This document shows, piece by piece, positions 7,189 through 39,792 of a DNA stretch of 64,000 nt. The stretch spans positions 928,001-992,000 of the forward strand of contig NZ_CP186926.1 of the NCBI RefSeq assembly GCF_049554935.1, in the 5' to 3' direction. The stretch comes from Methanocaldococcus indicus (GTDB lineage: Archaea; AGJL01; Methanococci; Methanococcales; Methanocaldococcaceae). The translations under genes were made by a program, and so were the position numbers. Below the pieces are notes generated by a model. The model saw nothing but the letters and a program-made list of their open reading frames with translations. It was not told where the DNA came from and did no database searches. Within the stretch, counting starts at the first letter, position 1. Each line of letters opens with the position of its first letter.

Positions 7189-7703
7189 TTAGTTATCCTC
7201 CAAGAGGCTCGATTTTAACAATATTTAAAAGGTATAAATGGTGAATGAAATGGATTACGTTTCCATCCTCCAAGAGGCACGATTTTAACTATTAACCATT
7301 TCCTATTTGAAAATATCAATATGTGTAAATGGTTTCCATCCTCCAAGAGGCACGATTTTAACCATTTTTGTTTTATTTGTTGATTTAAATTTATTAATTT
7401 GTTTCCATCCTCCAAGAGGCACGATTTTAACGAGTGTTGAAAAAATTGAACTCATCAAAAATAACATTGGTTTCCATCCTCCAAGAGGCACGATTTTAAC
7501 GTGATTACACTCCCCAAATTACTGTTGATGATGTCCAAGTTTCCATCCTCCAAGAGGCACGATTTTAACAATGAAAAAGTTAAATGGAGAATTAATTACA
7601 ACAAAGTTTCCATCCTCCAAGAGGCACGATTTTAACCCAACATAAAGACTTTACAGTAAATAAGACAGCAGAGTTTCCATCCTCCAAGAGGCACGATTTT
7701 AAC
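7189..7703 (-). CRISPR. CRISPR array, 8 repeats / 7 spacers; repeat GTTAAAATCGTGCCTCTTGGAGGATGGAAAC (31 nt)
   Basis: Repeats start at 7189 (degenerate, leader-distal), 7259, 7332, 7401, 7470, 7539, 7606, 7673. Spacers are 39, 42, 38, 38, 38, 36, 36 nt. CCTC/GAGG hairpin and GAAAC 3' end on the minus strand; leader on the right. Confidence 0.98.
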
Positions 7704-30120: not shown

Positions 30121-30879
30121 ATGAGAATTGAACTAAAACTAAAAACTGATAAATTTACAGTTATTCCATACAACCATCAATACTACTTAGCATCAGCAAT
30201 ATATAATAAGTTGCAATCAGCCAATCCAATTTATGCTGAAAAACTTCATAACTACAAAAAATTCAAATTTTTTACTTTTTCATTACTACAAGTAAAGAGA
30301 AGAGTTATAAGAAAGGAAGGTATTGAAACAATTGATGGTAATGTATATTTATATTTATCATCTCCAAAAAGTGATTTTATTGAGAACTTTGTTTCTGGAT
30401 TGTTAGATGATGGCTCTTTAAAAGTAGGAAATATTAATTTTTATGTTGATAAAGCAAAGGTTTTAAAAGTCCCTGAAAAATTTGAGATATTTAAAACAAT
30501 ATCTCCTATATATCTAAAAACAAAAATTGAAGACAATGGAAAATTAAAAGATTATGACCTACTTCCAAATCATTCTAAATTTTATGAAAACTTAAAAAAC
30601 AATTTAAAGAGAAAATATGAGCACTTTTACAATAAAAAGTGTGATTTGGATTTTGATTTTGAAATTTTAAAGTATAAATCTAAAAGGATGAAAATTAAAA
30701 ATGTTTATTGTAGATGCTCAGAATTAGTTTTTAAAGTTTGGGGAGATTATGAGCTTTTAAAATTTGGATATGAATGTGGATTTGGAGAAAAAAATAGTAT
30801 GGGATTTGGAATGGTTGTTAATACAAAAGATAAAGACACTGTCAAGTTAACGACTTCAACCAATTGTAGAACATCATGA
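30121..30879 (+). CDS. cas6: CRISPR endoribonuclease Cas6 (last residues supplied by IS6 sequence)
   Basis: IPYNHQY, FKFFTFS, G-rich loop [11 protein letters not shown]. Confidence 0.95.
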
Positions 30880-31536
30880 AACTTTTAATCCAGCTAACAA
30901 CTGTATCGAATTTGCTGTTATTAGGAAACCTATTATAAAATGCTTTAGTTCTTCGTTTGAGTAGTGAGAAAAAGCTTTCTACACAATTTCTCAGTCCGAA
31001 TCTGACTCTTTCAAATTCTAAACCCAATCTTTGCAATGCCCACGGATACCATCTTCCACCATCGACCAAAATCTTCGGCTTATTAGAGCAAAATTTTAAT
31101 ATACTCTTAACGAATAATATAGTATCGAGGCAGTTTCTTGTTTCAGAAACATAAACTCCCAAGCACTCTTTCGATTCAACATCAATAGCAGACCATACGT
31201 AAATATTTTCATTTCCAATCTTTAGTTTGGTCTCATCGATTGCAATTGCGTATCTTTCCTTTCTTTTAGGTTCGTTTAAAACATCTTTAATCTTGTGATA
31301 ATAAGTCCTAACCGACTCATGGCTTATACTTTCGAATTGGGAAAGAAACAAACTTACCTTCCTCAACGATAGTCCAAGATAATACAAAATCCCAGCTAAG
31401 ATTTTAACTTCTATCGACTTCTTATTCCTTTTAAAAATCTTCTCCTCTTCGATTCTCTCCTTTAAGACTTCTATCGTGAGCTTCATATTTTATTATTTTT
31501 TATCAATTATTAATAAAAGCTTAACTTGACACTCTC
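30835..31536 (-). mobile_element. IS6-family insertion sequence, 702 bp
   Basis: 16-bp TIRs GACACTGTCAAGTTAA (30835-30850) and TTAACTTGACACTCTC (31521-31536), 2 mismatches; direct repeat AAAGATAAA at 30826-30834 and 31537-31545. Confidence 0.95.
30842..31486 (-). CDS. IS6-family DDE transposase
   Basis: [22 protein letters not shown] triad; LSLRKV HTH. Confidence 0.93.
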
Positions 31537-31640
31537 AAAGATAAAAATAGAAAAAGATAAATAGATATGAATATAACATAAAATTATAATAACAACAAAA
31601 TCATTTAAATTAACAAATTATAATTATATTTGGTGAATTC

Positions 31641-33194
31641 ATGGAAATAAAAACTGATGAGATTATTAACCAAAATTATGATAAAAGTGAAAAAAACTAT
31701 AATATTGAAAAATCTAAAACTTTTATGTTTGAAGTTTCAATTTACCATGATGTATGGATGGACAATGCATTAGAAAATTTTTATCGAATTTTAAAAAAGA
31801 TAGACAATGAAGACCTTAATGTTACACTAACCAGTGATAAACTAATCTTTGAATTCGATAACTTTGAAGGGTTCAAAAATGCACTGATTCAACAAATTAA
31901 GCATAAATATAAAAATATGATTGTAATTGGAGAAGATAAAAAGACAGGAATTACAAAAGAGATTAAGAAGGACTTTATTCTGCTTCAAGAAGGTAAAAAG
32001 GAAGGAGGAACTGTAAAATTAAAAGAAGAAGTATTTGACTGGAATAAATTGCCTAAGATATTGGATGAGTTAAAAGAAAATAAAAAAGGAGATAAAATCT
32101 GTATAATGTGTGGAGGTAAGTATAAAAAAAGTTATACATTAAAGCAGGCGATTTATCCATTTGTAACAAAAAATAAAAGTTTAAGTGGGATTAGAACTAT
32201 TAAATCACTTCCAGAGTATCATAAAAACTTGTGTTTAATGTGCTATTTGTTGGGGGTTTTGGAATGGACTGATGAGGGGCTAATATATTACACATTAAAA
32301 GAAAAGAAAACATTTTTATTCCTTCCAATATTTGAGAACTTAATAGAACTTAACAAGTTTAAGGAAGAGACATTAAACGCAGGAATTTTAAAAGTATCAG
32401 AAAGGTATGGAAATTTACTTAAAAAACCAAATTCCAATGACATTGAAGAAATTTTTGGGGAATATACAACCTTATTAGCATTTTATGAGAAATTCATTGT
32501 TAATGTAAAAGAAAGTGAAGTATTATGCAATAAGTGGGGAGTTTTGCACATCCCATTGGGTAAAGTTAAAAATATCAAGTTTGAGACCATAAATGTTGAT
32601 AAAGGAATTTTGGAGGTGATAAGTAAGTTAATAGAAGATAGCTACTTAATATATAATGATATGGTAAAAGGAATATATTTCAAAAAGAAAACCAGCAAAG
32701 GATTTGTTACTGATTGGGATATTACCACTGAAATTAAAGAAAATTTGGCAAAATCATTATTAATAGACGATTTCAGAACCTTTTCAAAGCAGTTGATGCC
32801 AAGAAAAGGAGGCTTTGTTATTTTATCATCAGATGCCTATGAAATTTTAGATGAACTTATCTATCTATGGAGGTTGGTAAATATGGGAATTCCTAAGGAG
32901 AAATTACACACAATAAAAAGTGTTGGAAACATTATTGCGAAAATATCCCTTGGAAATTCTTCCCTACTATATAAACTTGATAAAGTTAGGACTATTGATG
33001 AGTTTTGGAGTGTTTTAAGAGAAATATCAAGAAAAATGGATGGAATGGAGAAAGATGAACTTAGAGAGATAAAACCGACTGCAATAGATGAACTTGTAAT
33101 TATGGTTAAAGAACATGAGAAAATTTGGAAAGAGATTAGAGATTTATTAGTTATCTACTCATCCATTTATCTTGCCATTAAAAAAATTAAATGA
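31641..33194 (+). CDS. cas8b: type I-B large subunit Cas8 (Cst1/CXXC-CXXC type)
   Basis: Position before cas7; CIMC...CLMC pairs; helical C-terminal domain. Confidence 0.8.
   Translation: MEIKTDEIINQNYDKSEKNYNIEKSKTFMFEVSIYHDVWMDNALENFYRILKKIDNEDLNVTLTSDKLIFEFDNFEGFKNALIQQIKHKYKNMIVIGEDKKTGITKEIKKDFILLQEGKKEGGTVKLKEEVFDWNKLPKILDELKENKKGDKICIMCGGKYKKSYTLKQAIYPFVTKNKSLSGIRTIKSLPEYHKNLCLMCYLLGVLEWTDEGLIYYTLKEKKTFLFLPIFENLIELNKFKEETLNAGILKVSERYGNLLKKPNSNDIEEIFGEYTTLLAFYEKFIVNVKESEVLCNKWGVLHIPLGKVKNIKFETINVDKGILEVISKLIEDSYLIYNDMVKGIYFKKKTSKGFVTDWDITTEIKENLAKSLLIDDFRTFSKQLMPRKGGFVILSSDAYEILDELIYLWRLVNMGIPKEKLHTIKSVGNIIAKISLGNSSLLYKLDKVRTIDEFWSVLREISRKMDGMEKDELREIKPTAIDELVIMVKEHEKIWKEIRDLLVIYSSIYLAIKKIK
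32883..33194 (+). CDS. cas11: putative Cas11 small subunit translated internally from cas8 (103 aa)
   Basis: In-frame ATG (Met415) preceded by GGAGG at 32869-32873, at the start of the helical C-terminal domain. Confidence 0.6.
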   Translation: MGIPKEKLHTIKSVGNIIAKISLGNSSLLYKLDKVRTIDEFWSVLREISRKMDGMEKDELREIKPTAIDELVIMVKEHEKIWKEIRDLLVIYSSIYLAIKKIK

Positions 33195-33210
33195 AGAAAG
33201 GGGGGATTAG

Positions 33211-34116
33211 ATGAAAGGTATAGAGATAGTTTGGTTATCAAAAACTGATCTAACAAACCTTAACTCTGGTGAAGGAGAGAGTAACTTTATTGATGTTAAG
33301 AAATTTAAGAAAAATGGTGTTGAATATCCTTACGTTTCGGGGCAGGCGATGAGATATTATATAAAAGAGGCAATTAGAAGGAATTTAGATGAAAATGAGT
33401 TTATGTGTGTTCCAGATGATAAAGGGGAGACATGTGGAAATATAAAAGACTGTATAGGATGTGACCTCTTTGGATTCATGAAGCCAGAGAAAAATGTTGG
33501 AGCAAGGACAAGAATCTCTCCAGTAAAAGTGTCTCCAGCAATAGGATTATTGCCATTTGATGAAAACTCAGCAGTTGATTTTTTAACAAGAAAATATAGA
33601 GGGGGAGAAAAGGCAGAGGGGGATATAGTAAATGTAGAGATTGGAGTTAATATCTATAAGGTAGGTGTAGCAATCGATGTTAAAAGGGTTGGAGGCGAAG
33701 AAAAGATTGAAAATGGAGCTGTTAAAATTGATTATGCTATAGATGAAGATGAACGTAAAAATAGGATTTCAAAGGTTATTGAATCCTTGAGATATTTATC
33801 AGATTATTCAAAGCAGGCAAGATTGCTAACCGATTTTACACCAGATTTTATAATAATTGCATTCCAAGAGATATACTCTCATAGATTACAAAAGGCAATA
33901 GATTTGAAAGATAACAGGATAAATATTGGTGTATTAAAGATAATTCTTGAAGATGTTTCAGAATATTCACCAAAAATATTTGTTGGGCTTGTTCCAAACT
34001 TCTTTGAAAATGAAGAAGAAGTTAAAAATCTATTTAAAGATTTAAATATAGAAGTTAAAGCTCCTCATGTGGCAATAAAAGATGCATTGAGCTATTTAGA
34101 TGAAATTAACTTATAA
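33211..34116 (+). CDS. cas7: Cas7 (Cst2/DevR family)
   Basis: [33 protein letters not shown]. Confidence 0.93.
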
Positions 34117-34131
34117 ATTATTGGTGTTTCT

Positions 34132-34908
34132 ATGTGGGGGTTAAAGTTTAGAGTTGAAGGAATTTACTTTGTAAGTTTTAGGAAACCAGTTACAACCTCT
34201 TTATCTTTAACCTATAAGTTACCACCTTTTACAGCAATTAGGGGGATGATAGGAAACGCTTTAGGAATGCCAAGAGATTCATTTGAGATTCAAAATTGGT
34301 TTAAAATTGGAATGAGAATTGAAGGCAAAATAGAGATTGGCAAGGAGATGGCTAAATTCTTAAAGATGATTTCAAGAAAATCATGTTATAGATGTAAGAG
34401 TTGTGGATTTGAGAAAATATCTGACTCAAAGCCAAAAAAATGTCCAAACTGTGGAGAAGGGAATATTATAAAAGTAGAGAAGGTGATTTATGATAGGGAG
34501 TTTCCATCTTCACCAATGCATAGAGAGTTTCTAATAATGCCAAAGTATTGGATTTATCTTGTAGGGGAAGAGAAGAAAATAAAAAAGAGTTATAATGCCT
34601 TAAAAAATCCAAAAAGACCATTGTATCTTGGAACATCTGATGATTTGGTAGATATTGAGGTATTTGAGCCAGTTATAGTAAAAGAAGTGGAAGAAAATAA
34701 AATATATAGTATCTTAGATGGGGTTTATGAAAAATGCATACTTGAAAAATTGCCATATAAATTTATCCCAATAAAAGACAGAAAAGGCAAGTTAAAAGAG
34801 GTTTATTCTGAATATAAACTTGTCTCTATCCCAACAAAGTTTCCATATTCAACTGAAAAGCCTTTAAAAGTTTGGGATTTTGGAGATGAGTTTATTAGGG
34901 TGTTTTAA
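34132..34908 (+). CDS. cas5: Cas5 with an inserted Zn-ribbon
   Basis: SFRKP...TYKLPPFTAIRGMIGNALG, PLYLGTSDDLV. Confidence 0.93.
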   Translation: MWGLKFRVEGIYFVSFRKPVTTSLSLTYKLPPFTAIRGMIGNALGMPRDSFEIQNWFKIGMRIEGKIEIGKEMAKFLKMISRKSCYRCKSCGFEKISDSKPKKCPNCGEGNIIKVEKVIYDREFPSSPMHREFLIMPKYWIYLVGEEKKIKKSYNALKNPKRPLYLGTSDDLVDIEVFEPVIVKEVEENKIYSILDGVYEKCILEKLPYKFIPIKDRKGKLKEVYSEYKLVSIPTKFPYSTEKPLKVWDFGDEFIRVF

Positions 34909-37271
34909 TGATTCTTGCTAAAAAGGAAGGAAAAGCATTTCAAACATTAAAAGGACATACTTATGACGCATTAAAAATCTACAAAGAATATTTGAGAAGA
35001 AATTTTGATGTAGTTGATGATTTTTGCAATAGGTGGGAAATTCCCACTGAAAAATTTATAAAAAATACTTTTTTCACTATTTATTTACATGATATTGGAA
35101 AAATAACAAAAGAATTCCAAAACAACATTAAAAAAGGAAATAGAAGCAATAAACATCCCCATCCACTTTATGCCCTTTCAATTATAAACAACATTGAGTT
35201 TGATTATTTGCTTGATGTTCCAATTGAGGTTTTTGCTATTTTGTCTCATCATACACAACTTTATGATAACTTATATGCTGATTATCAACAATACAAAAAA
35301 GGAACTTTTTTAGTGGATGAAATTAAAGATTTTATAAAAAATACTGAAGATGCTTATAATACCCTTGGATTTTCGAAATTTTTTGAATTTAAAGAACTAA
35401 AGATACATGAAATTCCAAAGGATGCAAAACCTTTAAAATTATACAAACTGAGAAGAGACCTTTGGATAATAACAAAAAAATATATAAATTCATTAAGCTT
35501 TAATGAAAAAATAAAAATAAAATCAATATTTTCGTTTTTATTTTCCATTCTTCAATTATGTGATGATTTTGCAAGTTTAAACTTTAGTGAATATGCAAAG
35601 AATAAAGAAGGAACTTTTGATGATATTTTGGAAAATTCAGAGATTTATGTTCCAACCTTGAATATTAAAAGTCCATTATTGTTTATCTTAAAAGATTATA
35701 AGCCATACAAATTCCAAAAAGAGCTTTATAACACAAAAAATAAGTTTGTGATGTTATTTGCCCCTTGTGGAAGGGGAAAGACAGAAGGGGCGTTACTTTG
35801 GGCATTAAATGCATTAAAAAACTTTAAAAGAAATAAAATCATCTTAGCAATGCCTACGCAAGTAACAAGCAATGCAATGTATGATAGATTGGTAAAGATT
35901 TTTGGAGAGGAAAATGTTGGTTTGTTTCATGGAAAGAGTTTTATTAAATTGAAGGATTCAAAAGATATAGAGGATGAAGAGGACTTAGAAGAGATTAGGG
36001 ATGAAAATTTTAAAGGAAACGTATTCTTTAAACCAATAACAATAACAACCATTGACCACGTTATATATTCTTTTGTTCATGGATTTTCTCATGCAGATTT
36101 TGCTTTAGGGAATATTCAGAGTTCAGTTATAATCTTCGATGAAGTCCATTACTATGAAAAATTCACATTAGAGCATTTATTAACACTTTTTGATATTTTA
36201 AGGAAAATGGATATTCCCCACTTACTTATGAGTGGGACACTGCCAAGCTTTTTAATTAACTGTTTTGAAGGTTATGAGATTATAGTTGATGAAGAGGGAT
36301 TAAATTACAAACCTTTTAAACTTGAATATTCAGAAAATCATTTAATTTGTAAAGAAGGAGATAAATGGAAAGTTAATGGAGACATAATCAATGAAATAAT
36401 AGACAACTACAAAAAAGGACTTTCCCAAGCGATTATTTTAAATACTGTTGAAAGGGCAAAAGAATTTTATAAGGCAATTAGAGATAAAGTCCCAGCAATC
36501 CTTTATCATTCCCAGTTTGCTTATAAGGATAGAGTTAATAAAGAAAAAGAAATTTTTAACTTAGAAAAAATGAGAAACAGACAAAACAAGCCTTATGTTA
36601 TAGTTGCTACACAAGTCATTGAAATTTCTCTTGATATGTCCGTTGATATTATGTATTCTGAGTTATCACCACCAGATGCCCTTGGACAGAGAGCTGGAAG
36701 ATTACATAGAAAAGGAAGAGATTGGAAAGAAAATGGAAAAGAGTATAAGCTAAAAATATTCTTGCCATATAAACACTTGCCATATAGTAAAGAACTGATA
36801 GAAAAAACACTAGACTATATAAAATTTTATGAAAAACCTTTGAATTATAGAGATATTAAGGATTTTGTTGATGATGTTTATAAAGATTATAATTTGAGTA
36901 TTCCAAGTGATTTAAAGTTATTTTTTGATGAGGCAATATTATTTGGAAGGCATTGGACAGATTTAGCAACGATAGATGATGAAGGAAAATTCTTTAAAGT
37001 TAGAGATGATAAATTTATGAAGATTGAGGTAGTTCCAAAAGTTTATTTTGATGAGTTGGGAGAGAATGCATTGAGAGCAGAATATATGGCAAAAATCCCA
37101 GTCTATTTAATTTTAAATGAAATAAAAAATGAGGAGGGGTTGATTCATTTTTATCCTTATGAAAAAAGAATTGGTAAAAGAACCAGAAGATATTTAATTT
37201 GTCTATTTAAATATACTTATGAAATAGGGTTTGACTACAGAGAGGAAGAAGAGTTTGAAGACATCTTATAG
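34908..37271 (+). CDS. cas3: Cas3 HD nuclease-helicase
   Basis: LHDIGK, SHH, APCGRGKTE, DEVH, MSGT, QRAGRLHR. Confidence 0.96.
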   Translation: MILAKKEGKAFQTLKGHTYDALKIYKEYLRRNFDVVDDFCNRWEIPTEKFIKNTFFTIYLHDIGKITKEFQNNIKKGNRSNKHPHPLYALSIINNIEFDYLLDVPIEVFAILSHHTQLYDNLYADYQQYKKGTFLVDEIKDFIKNTEDAYNTLGFSKFFEFKELKIHEIPKDAKPLKLYKLRRDLWIITKKYINSLSFNEKIKIKSIFSFLFSILQLCDDFASLNFSEYAKNKEGTFDDILENSEIYVPTLNIKSPLLFILKDYKPYKFQKELYNTKNKFVMLFAPCGRGKTEGALLWALNALKNFKRNKIILAMPTQVTSNAMYDRLVKIFGEENVGLFHGKSFIKLKDSKDIEDEEDLEEIRDENFKGNVFFKPITITTIDHVIYSFVHGFSHADFALGNIQSSVIIFDEVHYYEKFTLEHLLTLFDILRKMDIPHLLMSGTLPSFLINCFEGYEIIVDEEGLNYKPFKLEYSENHLICKEGDKWKVNGDIINEIIDNYKKGLSQAIILNTVERAKEFYKAIRDKVPAILYHSQFAYKDRVNKEKEIFNLEKMRNRQNKPYVIVATQVIEISLDMSVDIMYSELSPPDALGQRAGRLHRKGRDWKENGKEYKLKIFLPYKHLPYSKELIEKTLDYIKFYEKPLNYRDIKDFVDDVYKDYNLSIPSDLKLFFDEAILFGRHWTDLATIDDEGKFFKVRDDKFMKIEVVPKVYFDELGENALRAEYMAKIPVYLILNEIKNEEGLIHFYPYEKRIGKRTRRYLICLFKYTYEIGFDYREEEEFEDIL

Positions 37272-37280
37272 AGTGGAATT

Positions 37281-37776
37281 ATGGATAATTATTTAGAAGA
37301 TGAGCTTATAATTAGAGGAATTGAGATAAATTATCTCTATGTATGCAAAACAAAGCTATTTTATTTTATAAAAGGTATAACAATGGAACAAGAGAGTGAT
37401 TTTGTTGATTTAGGAAAATTTTTGCATAGAAAAAGTTACTTTGGAGAAGAAAAAGAAGTTCAAATAGGTAGTATAAAGATAGATTTTATTAGAAATTCAA
37501 ATGGAATTATTGAGATACATGAAATTAAAAAAAGTAAATCAATGGAAAAAGCTCATATTATGCAAGCTCTTTACTATATTTACTATTTAAAAAAATTAGG
37601 TTTAGAATCAATAGCAGTAATAAATTATCCAAAACTTAAAGAAAAGAAGATAGTAGAATTAACTCAAAAAGATATTTTAGAGTTAGAAAAGGCTTTAAAT
37701 GAAATTAATAAAATAAAATCAATGAAAGAACCACCAAATCCAGAATATAAAAAAATTTGTAAGAATTGTGCATACT

Positions 37777-37796
<20 letters not shown>
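37281..37796 (+). CDS. cas4: Cas4 nuclease
   Basis: N-terminal Cys plus CKNCAYYELC 4Fe-4S ligands; KIDF, HEIKK, QALYY RecB motifs. Confidence 0.95.
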
Positions 37797-39105
<1,309 letters not shown>

Positions 39106-39163: not shown

Positions 39164-39328
39164 ATTTCCATACCGGGACGGTCTTATTTTAACAGGAGGC
39201 ACATTTTCAATCTGGCAGATAATAACGAGCATCATAAGAACAATGACGGTCTTATTTTAACAAAACATTTATTTATGTGCATACTTCAATATTATAGATC
39301 ATAAGAACAATGACGGTCTTATTTTAAC
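39164..39328 (-). CRISPR. aberrant mini-array: one canonical repeat plus two identical chimeric repeats
   Basis: 39164-39193 = GTTAAAATAAGACCGTCCCGGTATGGAAAT (minus strand). 39231-39261 and 39298-39328 = GTTAAAATAAGACCGTCATTGTTCTTATGAT. Intervening segments are 37 and 36 nt; leader follows. Confidence 0.88.
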
Positions 39329-39710
39329 AGGAGGCACATTTTAGACATAATAATATAGCAACATAATATAGCAACGTTCTCATATATAAGCTTTTCGGGA
39401 CAAAAATTTTCGGAGGGTAGGTTTCCCTATTCATTTATATACCTTCGAACTTTTATAAAAATCTTTCTATTTAGTATTATTCCACTAAAAACCGTCTATT
39501 CTTAAAAACTAAACTAATTTATCAGGGATTAACCTAAAACTCATAAAAATCTCAGTAAATTATATAATCAAAATATATAAAATATTCAAAATATAAACCC
39601 CCTATGAATTTCTCTAAAAATCCTTTAAATTGAAAATAATCTTCTAAGACACTATAAAATCAAAAAATAAAAATTTTTAGCGTGATAATTATCATCTGAA
39701 TATATAAACT
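39329..39710 (-). promoter_or_regulatory. second CRISPR leader (paralog of 7704-8095) with BRE/TATA
   Basis: Shares blocks ttctcatatataagcttttc, gggtaggtttccctattcatttata and tttttagcgtgataatt with leader 1; 13-bp tandem duplication at 39350-39375. Confidence 0.9.
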
Positions 39711-39792
39711 TATGCAATAAACTAAATAACATTCAACAAAAAACGATACTTTTTTATAACTTTACAAGGAATACTACTTAAATGTGAGATAT

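What the first reader, a model, noticed from the sequence alone, without database searches (positions are those of the whole stretch)
39164..39342. Birth of a new CRISPR repeat recorded as two nested 31-bp duplications
Seen: duplication A, gacggtcttattttaacaggaggcacatttt (17 bp of repeat + 14 bp of leader), at 39177-39207 and 39312-39342. Duplication B, atcataagaacaatgacggtcttattttaac, at 39231-39261 and 39298-39328. Inference that reproduces the sequence exactly: step 1, a 37-bp spacer (39208-39244) integrated 14 bp off-register into the leader and duplicated A. Step 2, a 36-bp spacer (39262-39297) integrated at the normal leader-repeat junction and duplicated the adjacent 31 bp, i.e. half-repeat plus 14 bp of the earlier spacer. 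The new repeat lacks the hairpin and GAAAN handle. This implies the second integration site is set by length rather than sequence, and shows a route to abrupt repeat replacement or array inactivation.
Basis: partly seen in the sequence, partly recalled or inferred. Interest (0 to 1): 0.85.

Follow-up and report, generated by a model that had tools for sequence, protein, structure and literature searches.

The report
Misplaced spacer insertions created chimeric CRISPR repeat
A three-unit CRISPR array beside cas2 preserves the scars of one spacer insertion made 14 bases out of register and a second, in-register one that together created a hybrid, probably useless repeat; it is a natural record of a measuring mechanism already known from laboratory work.

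Summary
On the transcribed (-) strand the locus reads leader, chimeric repeat, 36-nt spacer, chimeric repeat, 23 nt, a 14-nt copy of the leader end, canonical repeat, cas2. Removing one copy of each duplication plus its insert restores the canonical leader-repeat junction exactly: 51 of 51 nt match another array. The 14 nt are the leader end of 8 of the genome's 12 arrays.

The two-step reading is well supported: an insertion about 14 bp into the leader, then one at the normal junction, each duplicating about 31 bp. I found four more scars in the same genome, with 31-33 bp duplications around 34-39 nt inserts. One insert matches a protospacer over exactly its 37 nt, which fixes that duplication at 31 bp. 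A relative holds an array where a different chimeric repeat occupies 8 of 9 units.

No ancestral state and no protospacer for the two window spacers was found.

The ruler principle, leader-shifted aberrant repeats and off-target paired cuts 30-31 bp apart are already published for E. coli, Haloarcula and Pyrococcus. This is therefore a well-documented natural example, not a new mechanism. Interest is moderate.

The parts
39343..39783 (-). CRISPR leader (about 440 nt), transcribed towards lower coordinates
   Evidence: Matches the 11 other leader copies of the genome at 79-84% identity. All 12 leader copies precede arrays.
39350..39375 (-). Exact 13-bp tandem duplication (2 x ATAATATAGCAAC on the + strand) at leader positions -22 to -47; unique to this leader
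   Evidence: One search gives the exact extent. The duplication is absent from the other 11 leaders shown.
39312..39342 (-). Duplication A, leader-proximal copy: last 14 nt of the leader (39329-39342) plus the first 17 nt of the repeat (39312-39328)
39298..39328 (-). Chimeric repeat 1 (duplication B, leader-proximal copy): 17 nt of repeat plus 14 nt derived from spacer 1
39262..39297 (-). Spacer 2, the younger one: 36 nt (35-37 nt, given the edge ambiguity)
   Evidence: No protospacer found.
39231..39261 (-). Chimeric repeat 2 (duplication B, distal copy)
39208..39244 (-). Reconstructed spacer 1, the older one (37 nt). Its first 14 nt (39231-39244) now form the 3' part of chimeric repeat 2.
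   Evidence: Reconstruction. The length falls in the normal range. No protospacer found.
39177..39207 (-). Duplication A, distal copy: a 14-nt copy of the leader end (39194-39207) plus the first 17 nt of the terminal repeat
39164..39193 (-). Canonical 30-nt terminal repeat GTTAAAATAAGACCGTCCCGGTATGGAAAT
   Evidence: Identical to the repeat of five other arrays.
38842..39105 (-). cas2
   Evidence: PF09827, E 1.5e-22; TIGR01573.
37856..38845 (+). cas1, type I-B, the only cas1 in the genome. The true start is probably the ATG at 37876.
   Evidence: TIGR03641, 448.9 bits against a cut-off of 304.1. Single genome-wide match. The start is inferred by comparison with relatives.
37281..37796 (+). cas4, the only one in the genome
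   Evidence: PF01930, E 1.6e-54; single genome-wide match.
37777..37881 (+). 33-bp direct duplication (37777-37809 and 37849-37881) around a 39-nt insert with 51% G+C (37810-37848) at the cas4-stop / cas1-start junction. This is a candidate off-target spacer integration.
   Evidence: All 5 relatives that carry both genes on the fetched locus have one copy and no insert.

Best explanation
The locus is the leader-proximal remnant of a type I-B CRISPR array that had collapsed to a single canonical repeat. It then took up two spacers through the genome's only Cas1-Cas2(-Cas4) module. In the first uptake the integrase docked out of register. Its two strand-transfer sites lay about 14 bp inside the leader and at repeat position 17, and gap repair duplicated the 31 bp between them (A) around a 37-nt spacer. 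The leader|repeat junction (..CCTCCT|GTTAAAAT..) survived in the leader-proximal copy. The second uptake therefore docked at the normal junction, and its distal cut, again about 31 bp away, fell 14 nt into spacer 1. Repair duplicated 17 nt of repeat plus 14 nt of spacer (B) around a 36-nt spacer. That duplicated stretch is now the first repeat and would be copied at each further uptake. The two cuts behave as a rigid caliper of about 31 bp that can slide along CRISPR DNA. The distal cut does not need the 3' half of the repeat. Because the chimeric repeat lacks the 3' tag and the small hairpin, neither new spacer is likely to give a functional crRNA, so the array is effectively dead. Shown: the sequence anatomy, the exact reversibility, the leader identity of the 14 nt, parallel scars of the same size, and one scar whose insert equals a protospacer. 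Inferred: the enzyme, the order of the cuts within each event, and the loss of function.
For: (1) Deleting 39262-39328 and then one A copy plus 39208-39244 gives a leader plus one repeat. This is identical over 51 of 51 nt to the junction of the C1:441167 array.
(2) The 14 nt at 39194-39207 equal the leader end that abuts the first repeat in 8 of 12 arrays. Homology to the leader stops exactly there.
(3) The inserts are 37 and 36 nt. The 80 normal spacers have a median of 37 nt, and 82.5% lie within 34-40 nt.
(4) A genome-wide scan for exact direct repeats of at least 20 nt at 50-400 bp spacing, leaving out full repeats, found the same signature four more times:
- C1:441345/441410: 31 bp, made of 23 nt of spacer plus 8 nt of repeat; insert 34 nt.
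- C1:401153/401221: 31 bp, made of 15 nt of repeat plus 16 nt of spacer; insert 37 nt.
- C1:400903/400972: 31 bp, wholly in a leader; insert 38 nt.
- Window 37777/37849: 33 bp; insert 39 nt.
(5) The 37-nt insert at C1:401184-401220 matches C1:1171348-1171384 at 37 of 37 and C2:9761-9797 at 35 of 37. The flanks differ on both sides. That insert is therefore exactly spacer-sized and its duplication is exactly 31 bp.
(6) The genome has one cas1 and one cas4, and the Cas1 is type I-B.
(7) Published behaviour of related integrases fits:
- P. furiosus Cas1-Cas2 makes paired off-target cuts 30-31 bp apart in vitro (PMC6698737, passages read).
- E. coli gave aberrant repeats shifted 2 nt into the leader at a fixed distance (PMC3737337, passages).
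- In H. hispanica I-B the distal cut is sequence-independent (PMC4872114, abstract and Discussion).
(8) In relative G006 (L036), 8 of 9 repeats are a different chimera (24 nt of repeat plus CTAATA) and only the oldest repeat is canonical. This shows that a chimeric first repeat is propagated.
Against: No ancestral (single-repeat) or intermediate allele was recovered:
- The held genomes carry one genome per species, and the nearest cas2 match is about 80% identical.
- The best metagenome Cas2 is 82% identical.
- Contigs of a related strain in runs X2 and X3 stop inside the terminal repeat.

No protospacer was found for either window spacer in the own genome, the phage or plasmid collections, 40 genomes of the order, or IMG/VR by one exact 23-mer. 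Spacer 1 is therefore not independently shown to be one 37-nt unit.

Canonical repeats are 30 nt, whereas the scars show 31-33 nt of identity. A ruler that gives 30 bp in register and 31 bp out of register is unexplained.

The off-register target sites show no common sequence and no in-register likeness to the repeat, so the cause of the slip is unknown.

No RNA data exist, and non-function of the chimeric repeat is untested.

The scan of relatives (30 fetched loci, two of them overlapping; 370 repeats; only about 1.5 kb of each array) found no duplication-type scars. The cluster in this genome is therefore unusual and unexplained.
Confidence: 0.87

Rival explanations
1. Illegitimate recombination or deletion produced the structure. 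For example, two tandem arrays or a duplicated leader-repeat block were later cut down, leaving a 14-nt leader stub in front of the terminal repeat, and the two odd repeats are a degenerate pair.
For: The genome has 12 homologous leaders and many identical repeats that could recombine. Identical neighbouring spacers in two arrays show that repeat-mediated duplication does happen.
Against: Three things would have to be coincidences: two nested duplications of the same 31 bp, each enclosing a unique insert of normal spacer length, and exact restoration of the canonical junction on reversal. Homology with the leader ends sharply at -14. Four other scars share the same dimensions, and one has a protospacer exactly as long as its insert.
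Confidence: 0.05
2. Replication slippage or tandem duplication, without any integrase, created the repeated blocks.
For: A pure 13-bp tandem duplication lies 8 bp away in the same leader, so slippage does occur here.
Against: Slippage gives head-to-tail copies with nothing between them. Here each pair is separated by 35-37 nt of unrelated sequence found nowhere else in the genome.
Confidence: 0.03
3. The chimeric 31-mer is a separate repeat family acquired by transfer, and the 14-nt match to the leader inside the 'spacer' is a chance match or a genuine protospacer.
For: The genome does hold two repeat families behind one type of leader, so repeat diversity exists.
Against: The chimeric junction has 0 exact hits in 185,579 species representatives (the own record may be left out). 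It has only 2 copies in the own genome. Its first 17 nt are identical to the canonical repeat. The 14-mer is expected 0.07 times in the window and sits exactly in leader-repeat register. No foreign match covers 39194-39230.
Confidence: 0.02
4. Assembly artefact in a repetitive region.
For: Duplication A is exactly 31 nt, the k-mer size of Logan's graphs, so contigs break there.
Against: Independent contigs of run X1 span 39178-39260 and 39233-39327 with 0 differences, at depth 26-27 against 28.5 in the flank. The internal 135-bp segment is therefore present once per genome and can only lie between the two A copies.
Confidence: 0.02

Closest known systems
Aberrant CRISPR-spacer insertions in E. 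coli I-E with a mismatched leader/Cas combination (Diez-Villasenor et al. 2013, PMC3737337; passages read)
   Same: The first cut was displaced into the leader and the second cut lay at a fixed distance. The new repeat contained leader bases and lost its distal end. The ruler mechanism was proposed from this.
   Different: The shift there was 2 nt, in an engineered plasmid system. Here the shift is about 14 nt in a wild archaeal genome, and it is followed by a second uptake that fixes a half-foreign repeat.
Off-target full-site integration by Pyrococcus furiosus Cas1-Cas2 in vitro (Grainy et al. 2019, PMC6698737; abstract and passages)
   Same: It involves a related euryarchaeal integrase and a 30-nt repeat of the same GTT...GAAA style. 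The paired cuts on opposite strands lie 30-31 bp apart at non-repeat sites.
   Different: The Pfu off-target sites resembled the repeat and had G/C at their borders. The scars here do not resemble the repeat in register, and four of the five aberrant target sites (excluding the in-register duplication B) overlap or lie within 5 bp of a real repeat. The Pfu data come from naked DNA in vitro; these are heritable products.
Aberrant repeat-duplication sizes in Haloarcula hispanica type I-B (Wang et al. 2016, PMC4872114; abstract and Discussion)
   Same: It is the same subtype (I-B). The distal cut is sequence-independent, and duplications of 29-33 bp were seen instead of 30 bp.
   Different: There the leader-side cut stayed fixed and the distal cut was measured from a mid-repeat motif. 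Here both cuts move together (offsets about -35, -23, -14 and +15). In step 2 the distal cut was placed without the 3' 13 nt of the repeat. This fits a whole-length caliper better than a mid-repeat anchor.
Neo-CRISPR arrays from off-target integration in E. coli (Nivala, Shipman and Church 2018). The paper is not held; it is known here only through citing passages in bioRxiv 10.1101/148544 and PMC6698737.
   Same: Non-canonical integration duplicates a non-repeat target and so creates new 'repeats' that can seed an array.
   Different: Those events were at non-CRISPR genomic sites under Cas1-Cas2 overproduction. The window's main case happened inside a native leader and array. The scar at the cas4-cas1 junction is the closer analogue.
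Ectopic spacer acquisition in Streptococcus type II-A arrays (PMC7999890 and PMC5338259, search listing and abstracts only; McGinn and Marraffini as described in bioRxiv 10.1101/2022.05.19.492656)
   Same: Spacers are inserted away from the normal leader-proximal site, and this is linked to leader defects.
   Different: Ectopic events there are in register at internal repeats and leave normal repeats. Here the register itself is lost.

Membership tests
CRISPR array of a type I-B CRISPR-Cas locus | Direct repeats of about 30 nt separated by unique spacers of similar length | tested here: met
   There are three repeat-derived units with spacing of 67-68 bp. The terminal unit is identical to the 30-nt repeat of five other arrays.
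CRISPR array of a type I-B CRISPR-Cas locus | Adjacent cas genes, including cas1, cas2 and subtype signature genes | tested here: met
   The window carries cas6, a 517-aa protein with no family match, cas7 (I-B Cst2/DevR, over the cut-off), cas5, cas3, cas4, cas1b (over the cut-off) and cas2 at 30121-39105. No Cas8b model matched the 517-aa protein.
CRISPR array of a type I-B CRISPR-Cas locus | A conserved leader on the side where new repeats are added | tested here: met
   The 441-nt leader matches 11 other leaders at 79-84% identity. Degenerate repeats lie at the opposite end of the other arrays.
CRISPR array of a type I-B CRISPR-Cas locus | Repeats carry the conserved 3' tag that becomes the crRNA 5' handle | tested here: not met
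   Two of three units end in ...CUUAUGAU instead of ...AUGGAAAU. Only the terminal repeat has the tag. That the tag is needed for function is established knowledge recalled, not tested here.
Scar of non-canonical (off-register) Cas1-Cas2 integration | A direct duplication of about repeat length flanks the insert | tested here: met
   A is 31 bp and B is 31-32 bp, against a 30-nt repeat.
Scar of non-canonical (off-register) Cas1-Cas2 integration | The insert has spacer length | tested here: met
   The inserts are 37 and 36 nt; the 80 normal spacers have a median of 37 nt and a range of 32-48 nt.
Scar of non-canonical (off-register) Cas1-Cas2 integration | Removing the insert plus one copy of the duplication restores an intact target | tested here: met
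   51 of 51 nt are identical to a canonical leader-repeat junction.
Scar of non-canonical (off-register) Cas1-Cas2 integration | The insert is traceable to a protospacer with matching boundaries | tested here: inconclusive
   No protospacer was found for either window spacer. The feature is met for the parallel scar at C1:401184-401220: 37 of 37 match, with flanks that differ on both sides.
Scar of non-canonical (off-register) Cas1-Cas2 integration | Catalysis by the resident Cas1-Cas2 integrase | not testable with these tools
   An intact cas1, cas2 and cas4 are present, each of cas1 and cas4 as a single copy. Activity would need biochemistry.
Transposon / IS / MITE insertion | A short target-site duplication and an element with terminal inverted repeats or a transposase | tested here: not met
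   The duplications are 31-33 bp. Transposon duplications are at most about 9-12 bp and casposon duplications 14-15 bp (PMC4872114 Discussion). The inserts are 34-39 nt, unique and unrelated to one another. Terminal inverted repeats were not searched for separately.
Neo-CRISPR (a new array seeded at a non-CRISPR site) | The target lies outside any CRISPR array or leader | tested here: not met
   Both window events lie in the leader or first repeat of a native array. The separate scar at 37777-37881, at the cas4/cas1 junction, does meet this feature.

The most novel reading that the evidence does not exclude
In this lineage, out-of-register integration may be a recurrent process with evolutionary consequences, not a rare accident. 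The integrase would act as a rigid 31-bp caliper that is recruited to CRISPR DNA but docks loosely. This would produce (a) abrupt repeat replacement, as in the array of relative G006 where a chimera fills 8 of 9 units, and (b) a survival filter. In that filter, spacers taken from the cell's own DNA persist only when misplaced, because a misplaced spacer yields no working crRNA. In support of (b), the one scar with a traceable source is a perfect self-match to a chromosomal HEPN gene, whereas 0 of 80 in-register spacers have a full-length self-match. A further untested possibility is that the 13-bp tandem duplication unique to this leader displaced an upstream positioning element (a histone or promoter-factor site). 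That would have set the first cut 13-14 bp upstream, meaning the site is partly measured from the leader.
Probability: 0.3. Interest if true: 0.65.

Novelty: new member of a known kind. Interest (0 to 1): 0.5.

Why it matters
Spacer integration fidelity has been worked out mostly on plasmids and in test tubes. Fixed scars in a wild genome show what the enzyme does in vivo and what selection tolerates.

This locus records both the slip and its consequence in the right order. Together with four sister scars, it shows that the two cuts stay about 31 bp apart while the pair slides by -35 to +15 bp. It also shows that the distal cut is placed correctly without the 3' 13 nt of the repeat. That argues for a whole-complex caliper in a type I-B system, where the published Haloarcula model invokes a mid-repeat anchor.

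It further shows a concrete route by which an array can be silenced or its repeat replaced in one step. It hints that misplacement may rescue cells from self-targeting spacers.

None of this overturns current models. It supplies natural test cases and defined templates for integration and Cas6 assays.

Tried and rejected
Ancestral or intermediate alleles were not found.
- A search of 41 related genomes and 17 genomes of the genus found no conspecific genome.
- The metagenome scan with Cas2 gave at best 82% identity.
- Runs X2 and X3 hold a related strain's cas2 and terminal repeat, but their contigs end in the repeat. The single 'joint' 39207>39363 in X2 is explained by the ordinary leader junction shared by all arrays.
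- No RNA holder was listed.

Protospacers for the two window spacers were not found.
- Own genome: the best non-self match was 16 nt.
- Phages and plasmids gave only hits with E >= 0.3.
- The 40 genomes of the order gave only matches to the repeat part.
- IMG/VR was searched with only one exact 23-mer, which gave 0 hits. That is a weak search.

Site preference: I looked for likeness between the off-register target sites and the repeat, and for a common border base. I found none.

PAM: it could not be derived. Only 1 of 80 normal spacers has any match outside arrays in the own genome (25 nt at 92%).

The relatives' scan is limited.
- Its flagged oddities were looked at in detail only for L036, L044 and L050.
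- L016 (a 60-nt spacer), L017 (a 252-nt gap), L022, L025, L034 and L041 were not inspected further.
- For L014, L018 and L031 the consensus repeat was cut short by my script, so their gap flags are artefacts.
- L013 and L032 overlap and count one array twice.
- The scan sees only exact duplications of at least 20 nt, so old, mutated scars would be missed.

Leader hypothesis: the 13-bp leader duplication may have caused the -13/-14 slip. I keep this only as a low-odds idea, because step 2 used the normal junction in what was presumably the same leader.

Nivala et al. 2018 is not held. Supplementary files were not requested; those of PMC6698737 and PMC13748974 may list off-target sites or Methanococcales leader motifs that bear on the leader idea.
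Full report
**What is there.** The window carries a complete type I-B cas operon on the + strand:
- cas6 at 30121-30879;
- a 517-aa protein with no family match;
- cas7, cas5, cas3 and cas4;
- cas1 at 37856-38845.

cas2 lies on the - strand at 38842-39105. Between cas2 and a non-coding stretch of about 440 nt lies the feature.

The window is G000:C1:928001-992000 in a 1.44-Mb genome with 28% G+C. On the - strand, which is the transcribed orientation, the locus reads in this order:
- leader (39783-39343, ending ..TCTAAAATGTGCCTCCT);
- chimeric repeat (39328-39298);
- 36-nt spacer (39297-39262);
- chimeric repeat (39261-39231);
- 23 nt (39230-39208);
- a second copy of the 14 leader-end bases (39207-39194);
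- the canonical 30-nt repeat (39193-39164);
- the cas2 upstream region.

**Checking the observation.**
- A is 31 nt, and the flanking bases differ on both sides.
- B is 31 nt with one further identical base, giving 32 nt.
- The repeat core occurs 3 times in the window against 0.02 expected. The 14-nt word occurs twice against 0.07 expected.
- Logan contigs of run X1 span 39178-39260 and 39233-39327 without a difference. Their depth is 26-27 against 28.5 in the flank, so the 135-bp internal segment is present once per genome. X1 may be the source sample, so this excludes an assembler artefact but is not an independent strain.

**Is the 14-mer really leader?** The genome has 12 arrays in two repeat families. 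Six carry GTTAAAATAAGACCGTCCCGGTATGGAAAT and six carry GTTAAAATCG[A/T]GCCTCTTGGAGGATGGAAA. All 12 lie behind homologous leaders. The exact 14-mer abuts the first repeat in 8 of the 12. One further array has a single mismatch and three are divergent. The orientation follows from two facts: the leader always lies on the GTTAAAAT side, and the degenerate repeats lie at the far end.

**Reconstruction.** I deleted the leader-proximal B copy plus the 36-nt spacer, and then one A copy plus 39208-39244. This yields a leader followed by a single canonical repeat. Over the last 21 leader bases plus the 30-nt repeat it is identical (51 of 51) to the array at C1:441167.

The nesting fixes the order. B contains 14 nt that exist only because of the first insertion, so A preceded B. 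The inserts of 37 and 36 nt fit the 80 normal spacers of the genome (median 37 nt, range 32-48 nt, 82.5% within 34-40 nt).

Because single-base identities at an edge can arise by chance, the true duplications could be 30-31 bp for A and 30-32 bp for B.

**Independent replicates in the same genome.** I scanned the genome for exact direct repeats of at least 20 nt at 50-400 bp spacing that do not contain a full repeat. Besides ordinary tandem repeats, the scan returned four more cases of the same signature.
- (iii) C1:441345/441410. The duplication is 31 bp, made of 23 nt of a spacer tail plus the first 8 nt of repeat 4. The insert is 34 nt.
- (iv) C1:401153/401221. The duplication is 31 bp, made of the last 15 nt of repeat 3 plus 16 nt of the next spacer. 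The insert is 37 nt.
- (v) C1:400903/400972. The duplication is 31 bp and lies wholly inside the leader of the 401004 array. The insert is 38 nt. That array's leader-repeat junction is itself mutated.
- (vi) Window 37777-37809 / 37849-37881. The duplication is 33 bp around a 39-nt insert with 51% G+C, exactly at the cas4-stop / cas1-start junction.

For (vi), all 5 relatives that carry both genes on the fetched locus have a single copy of the junction and no insert. It is therefore an insertion in this lineage.

For (iv), the insert matches C1:1171348-1171384 at 37 of 37 and plasmid C2:9761-9797 at 35 of 37. The bases flanking the protospacer differ from the array on both sides. The insert is therefore exactly the 37 nt that the duplication delimits, and that duplication is exactly 31 bp. 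This validates reading such structures as target duplication plus spacer.

The protospacer of (iv) lies in a HEPN gene of a nucleotidyltransferase-HEPN pair. None of the 80 in-register spacers has a full-length match in the own genome outside arrays.

**What the scars say about mechanism.** Across the events the pair of cuts sits at offsets of about -35, -23, -14, 0 and +15 relative to a repeat start, yet the spacing stays at 31 bp (33 bp at the non-CRISPR site). The out-of-register target sequences do not resemble the repeat in register.

The two cuts therefore behave as a rigid caliper. The complex is recruited to CRISPR DNA: five of the six duplication-plus-insert events (the two in the window and scars iii-v) lie in arrays or leaders. 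Even so, it can dock out of register.

In step 2 the distal cut was placed although repeat positions 18-30 had been replaced. The genome has one cas1 and one cas4, so the same module presumably made all of these scars.

The chimeric repeat loses the weak 4-bp hairpin (-3.1 kcal/mol, no better than shuffles) and the AUGGAAAU 3' end. Loss of crRNA function is a reasonable inference but is not shown.

**Relatives.** The cas2-adjacent arrays of same-genus genomes are long and regular. I scanned 30 fetched loci from relatives, two of which overlap. They hold 370 repeats, and only about 1.5 kb of each array was seen. No duplication-type scars turned up.

L036 (G006) is different. It holds an array in which the eight leader-proximal repeats are a chimera (24 nt of repeat plus CTAATA) and only the oldest repeat is canonical. 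It did not arise in the same way as the window's chimera, because no leader bases precede the terminal repeat. It does show that a chimeric first repeat is copied at each later uptake.

**What was not found.** No ancestral or intermediate allele was recovered. No protospacer for the two window spacers was found. The chimeric junction has no hit among species representatives.

**Comparison with what is known.**
- A ruler for the second cut was proposed in 2013 from E. coli insertions shifted 2 nt into the leader (PMC3737337, passages).
- In H. hispanica I-B the distal cut is sequence-independent, and duplications of 29-33 bp can be forced (PMC4872114, abstract and Discussion).
- P. furiosus Cas1-Cas2 makes off-target paired cuts 30-31 bp apart in vitro (PMC6698737, passages).
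- Leader motifs and histones position integration in Thermococcales, and similar motifs exist in Methanococcales (PMC13748974, abstract and passages).
- Off-target integration can seed new arrays in E. coli (Nivala et al. 2018). I know this only from citing passages, because the paper itself is not held.
- Searches for 'chimeric repeat' together with CRISPR terms returned no paper that uses the phrase. Searches for ectopic integration and for Methanocaldococcus arrays showed no report of natural nested scars of this kind. Only listings and the cited passages were read.

**Verdict.** The principle it illustrates is established, so this is a new natural member of a known kind. Three things add value:
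- the cluster of same-sized scars in one genome;
- the indication that both cuts slide together;
- the single traceable misplaced spacer being a self-match.

The idea that the unique 13-bp leader duplication (39350-39375) caused the 13-14 bp slip remains speculative.

Noticed in passing
window 37777-37881: A 33-bp direct duplication flanks a 39-nt insert with 51% G+C exactly at the cas4-stop / cas1-start junction. Five relatives have one copy and no insert. It looks like an off-target spacer integration inside the cas operon that left both genes intact. The true cas1 start is probably the ATG at 37876 (MRKKSL.., as in relatives).
   Followed up: yes
window 39350-39375: An exact 13-bp tandem duplication lies in the leader between the TATA-like element and the repeat-adjacent motif. 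It is absent from the 11 other leaders. Its length is close to the 13-14 bp offset of the first misplaced integration.
   Followed up: partly
G000 C1:441345-441440, C1:401153-401251, C1:400903-401002 (outside the window): There are three further out-of-register integration scars. Each is a 31-bp duplication around an insert of 34-38 nt. One straddles a spacer/repeat border, one a repeat/spacer border, and one lies wholly in a leader whose junction with the repeat is mutated.
   Followed up: yes
G000 C1:401184-401220 versus C1:1171348-1171384 and C2:9761-9797 (L135, L136): The misplaced 37-nt insert is a perfect match to a chromosomal HEPN gene of a nucleotidyltransferase-HEPN pair. It matches the plasmid copy at 35 of 37. 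None of the 80 normal spacers has a full-length self-match. This suggests that misplacement neutralises self-targeting spacers.
   Followed up: partly
L036:1895-2453 (G006:C1:758129-761317): This is an array of nine units. The eight leader-proximal repeats end in CTAATA instead of GGAAAC and only the oldest is canonical, so a chimeric repeat has taken over the array. Six of the eight following spacers begin with C, which may mean that some duplications were 31 bp.
   Followed up: partly
L050 (G011), reverse strand 1864-1991: The two leader-proximal spacers are only 20 and 18 nt long and lie between perfect repeats.
   Followed up: no
G000 C1:753653 array, spacer 2; L013/L032 (G010), spacer 8: These spacers end with the first 8-9 nt of the repeat directly before the next repeat (GTTAAAAT GTTAAAAT.. 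and ATTAAAATA ATTAAAATA..). This may be another kind of imprecise integration.
   Followed up: no
window about 7190-7703 (C1:935190-935703, - strand) and C1:1004095-1004859: A second array (the other repeat family) lies in the window. Its third spacer is nearly the same as spacer 6 of the C1:1004095 array of the first family. Both repeat families therefore took up the same target, apparently through the single cas1.
   Followed up: no
G000 C1:441167 array spacers 9 and 10; C1:1004095 array spacers 9 and 10; L010 spacers 5-7, 9, 11-12: Identical spacers are repeated side by side or nearby, which points to repeat-mediated duplication within arrays.
   Followed up: no
G000 C2:1863-2060 and C2:966-1380: The 22-kb second contig, presumably a plasmid, carries runs of 30-bp tandem repeats and 190-bp spaced repeats that look like iterons. 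It also carries its own six-unit CRISPR array.
   Followed up: no
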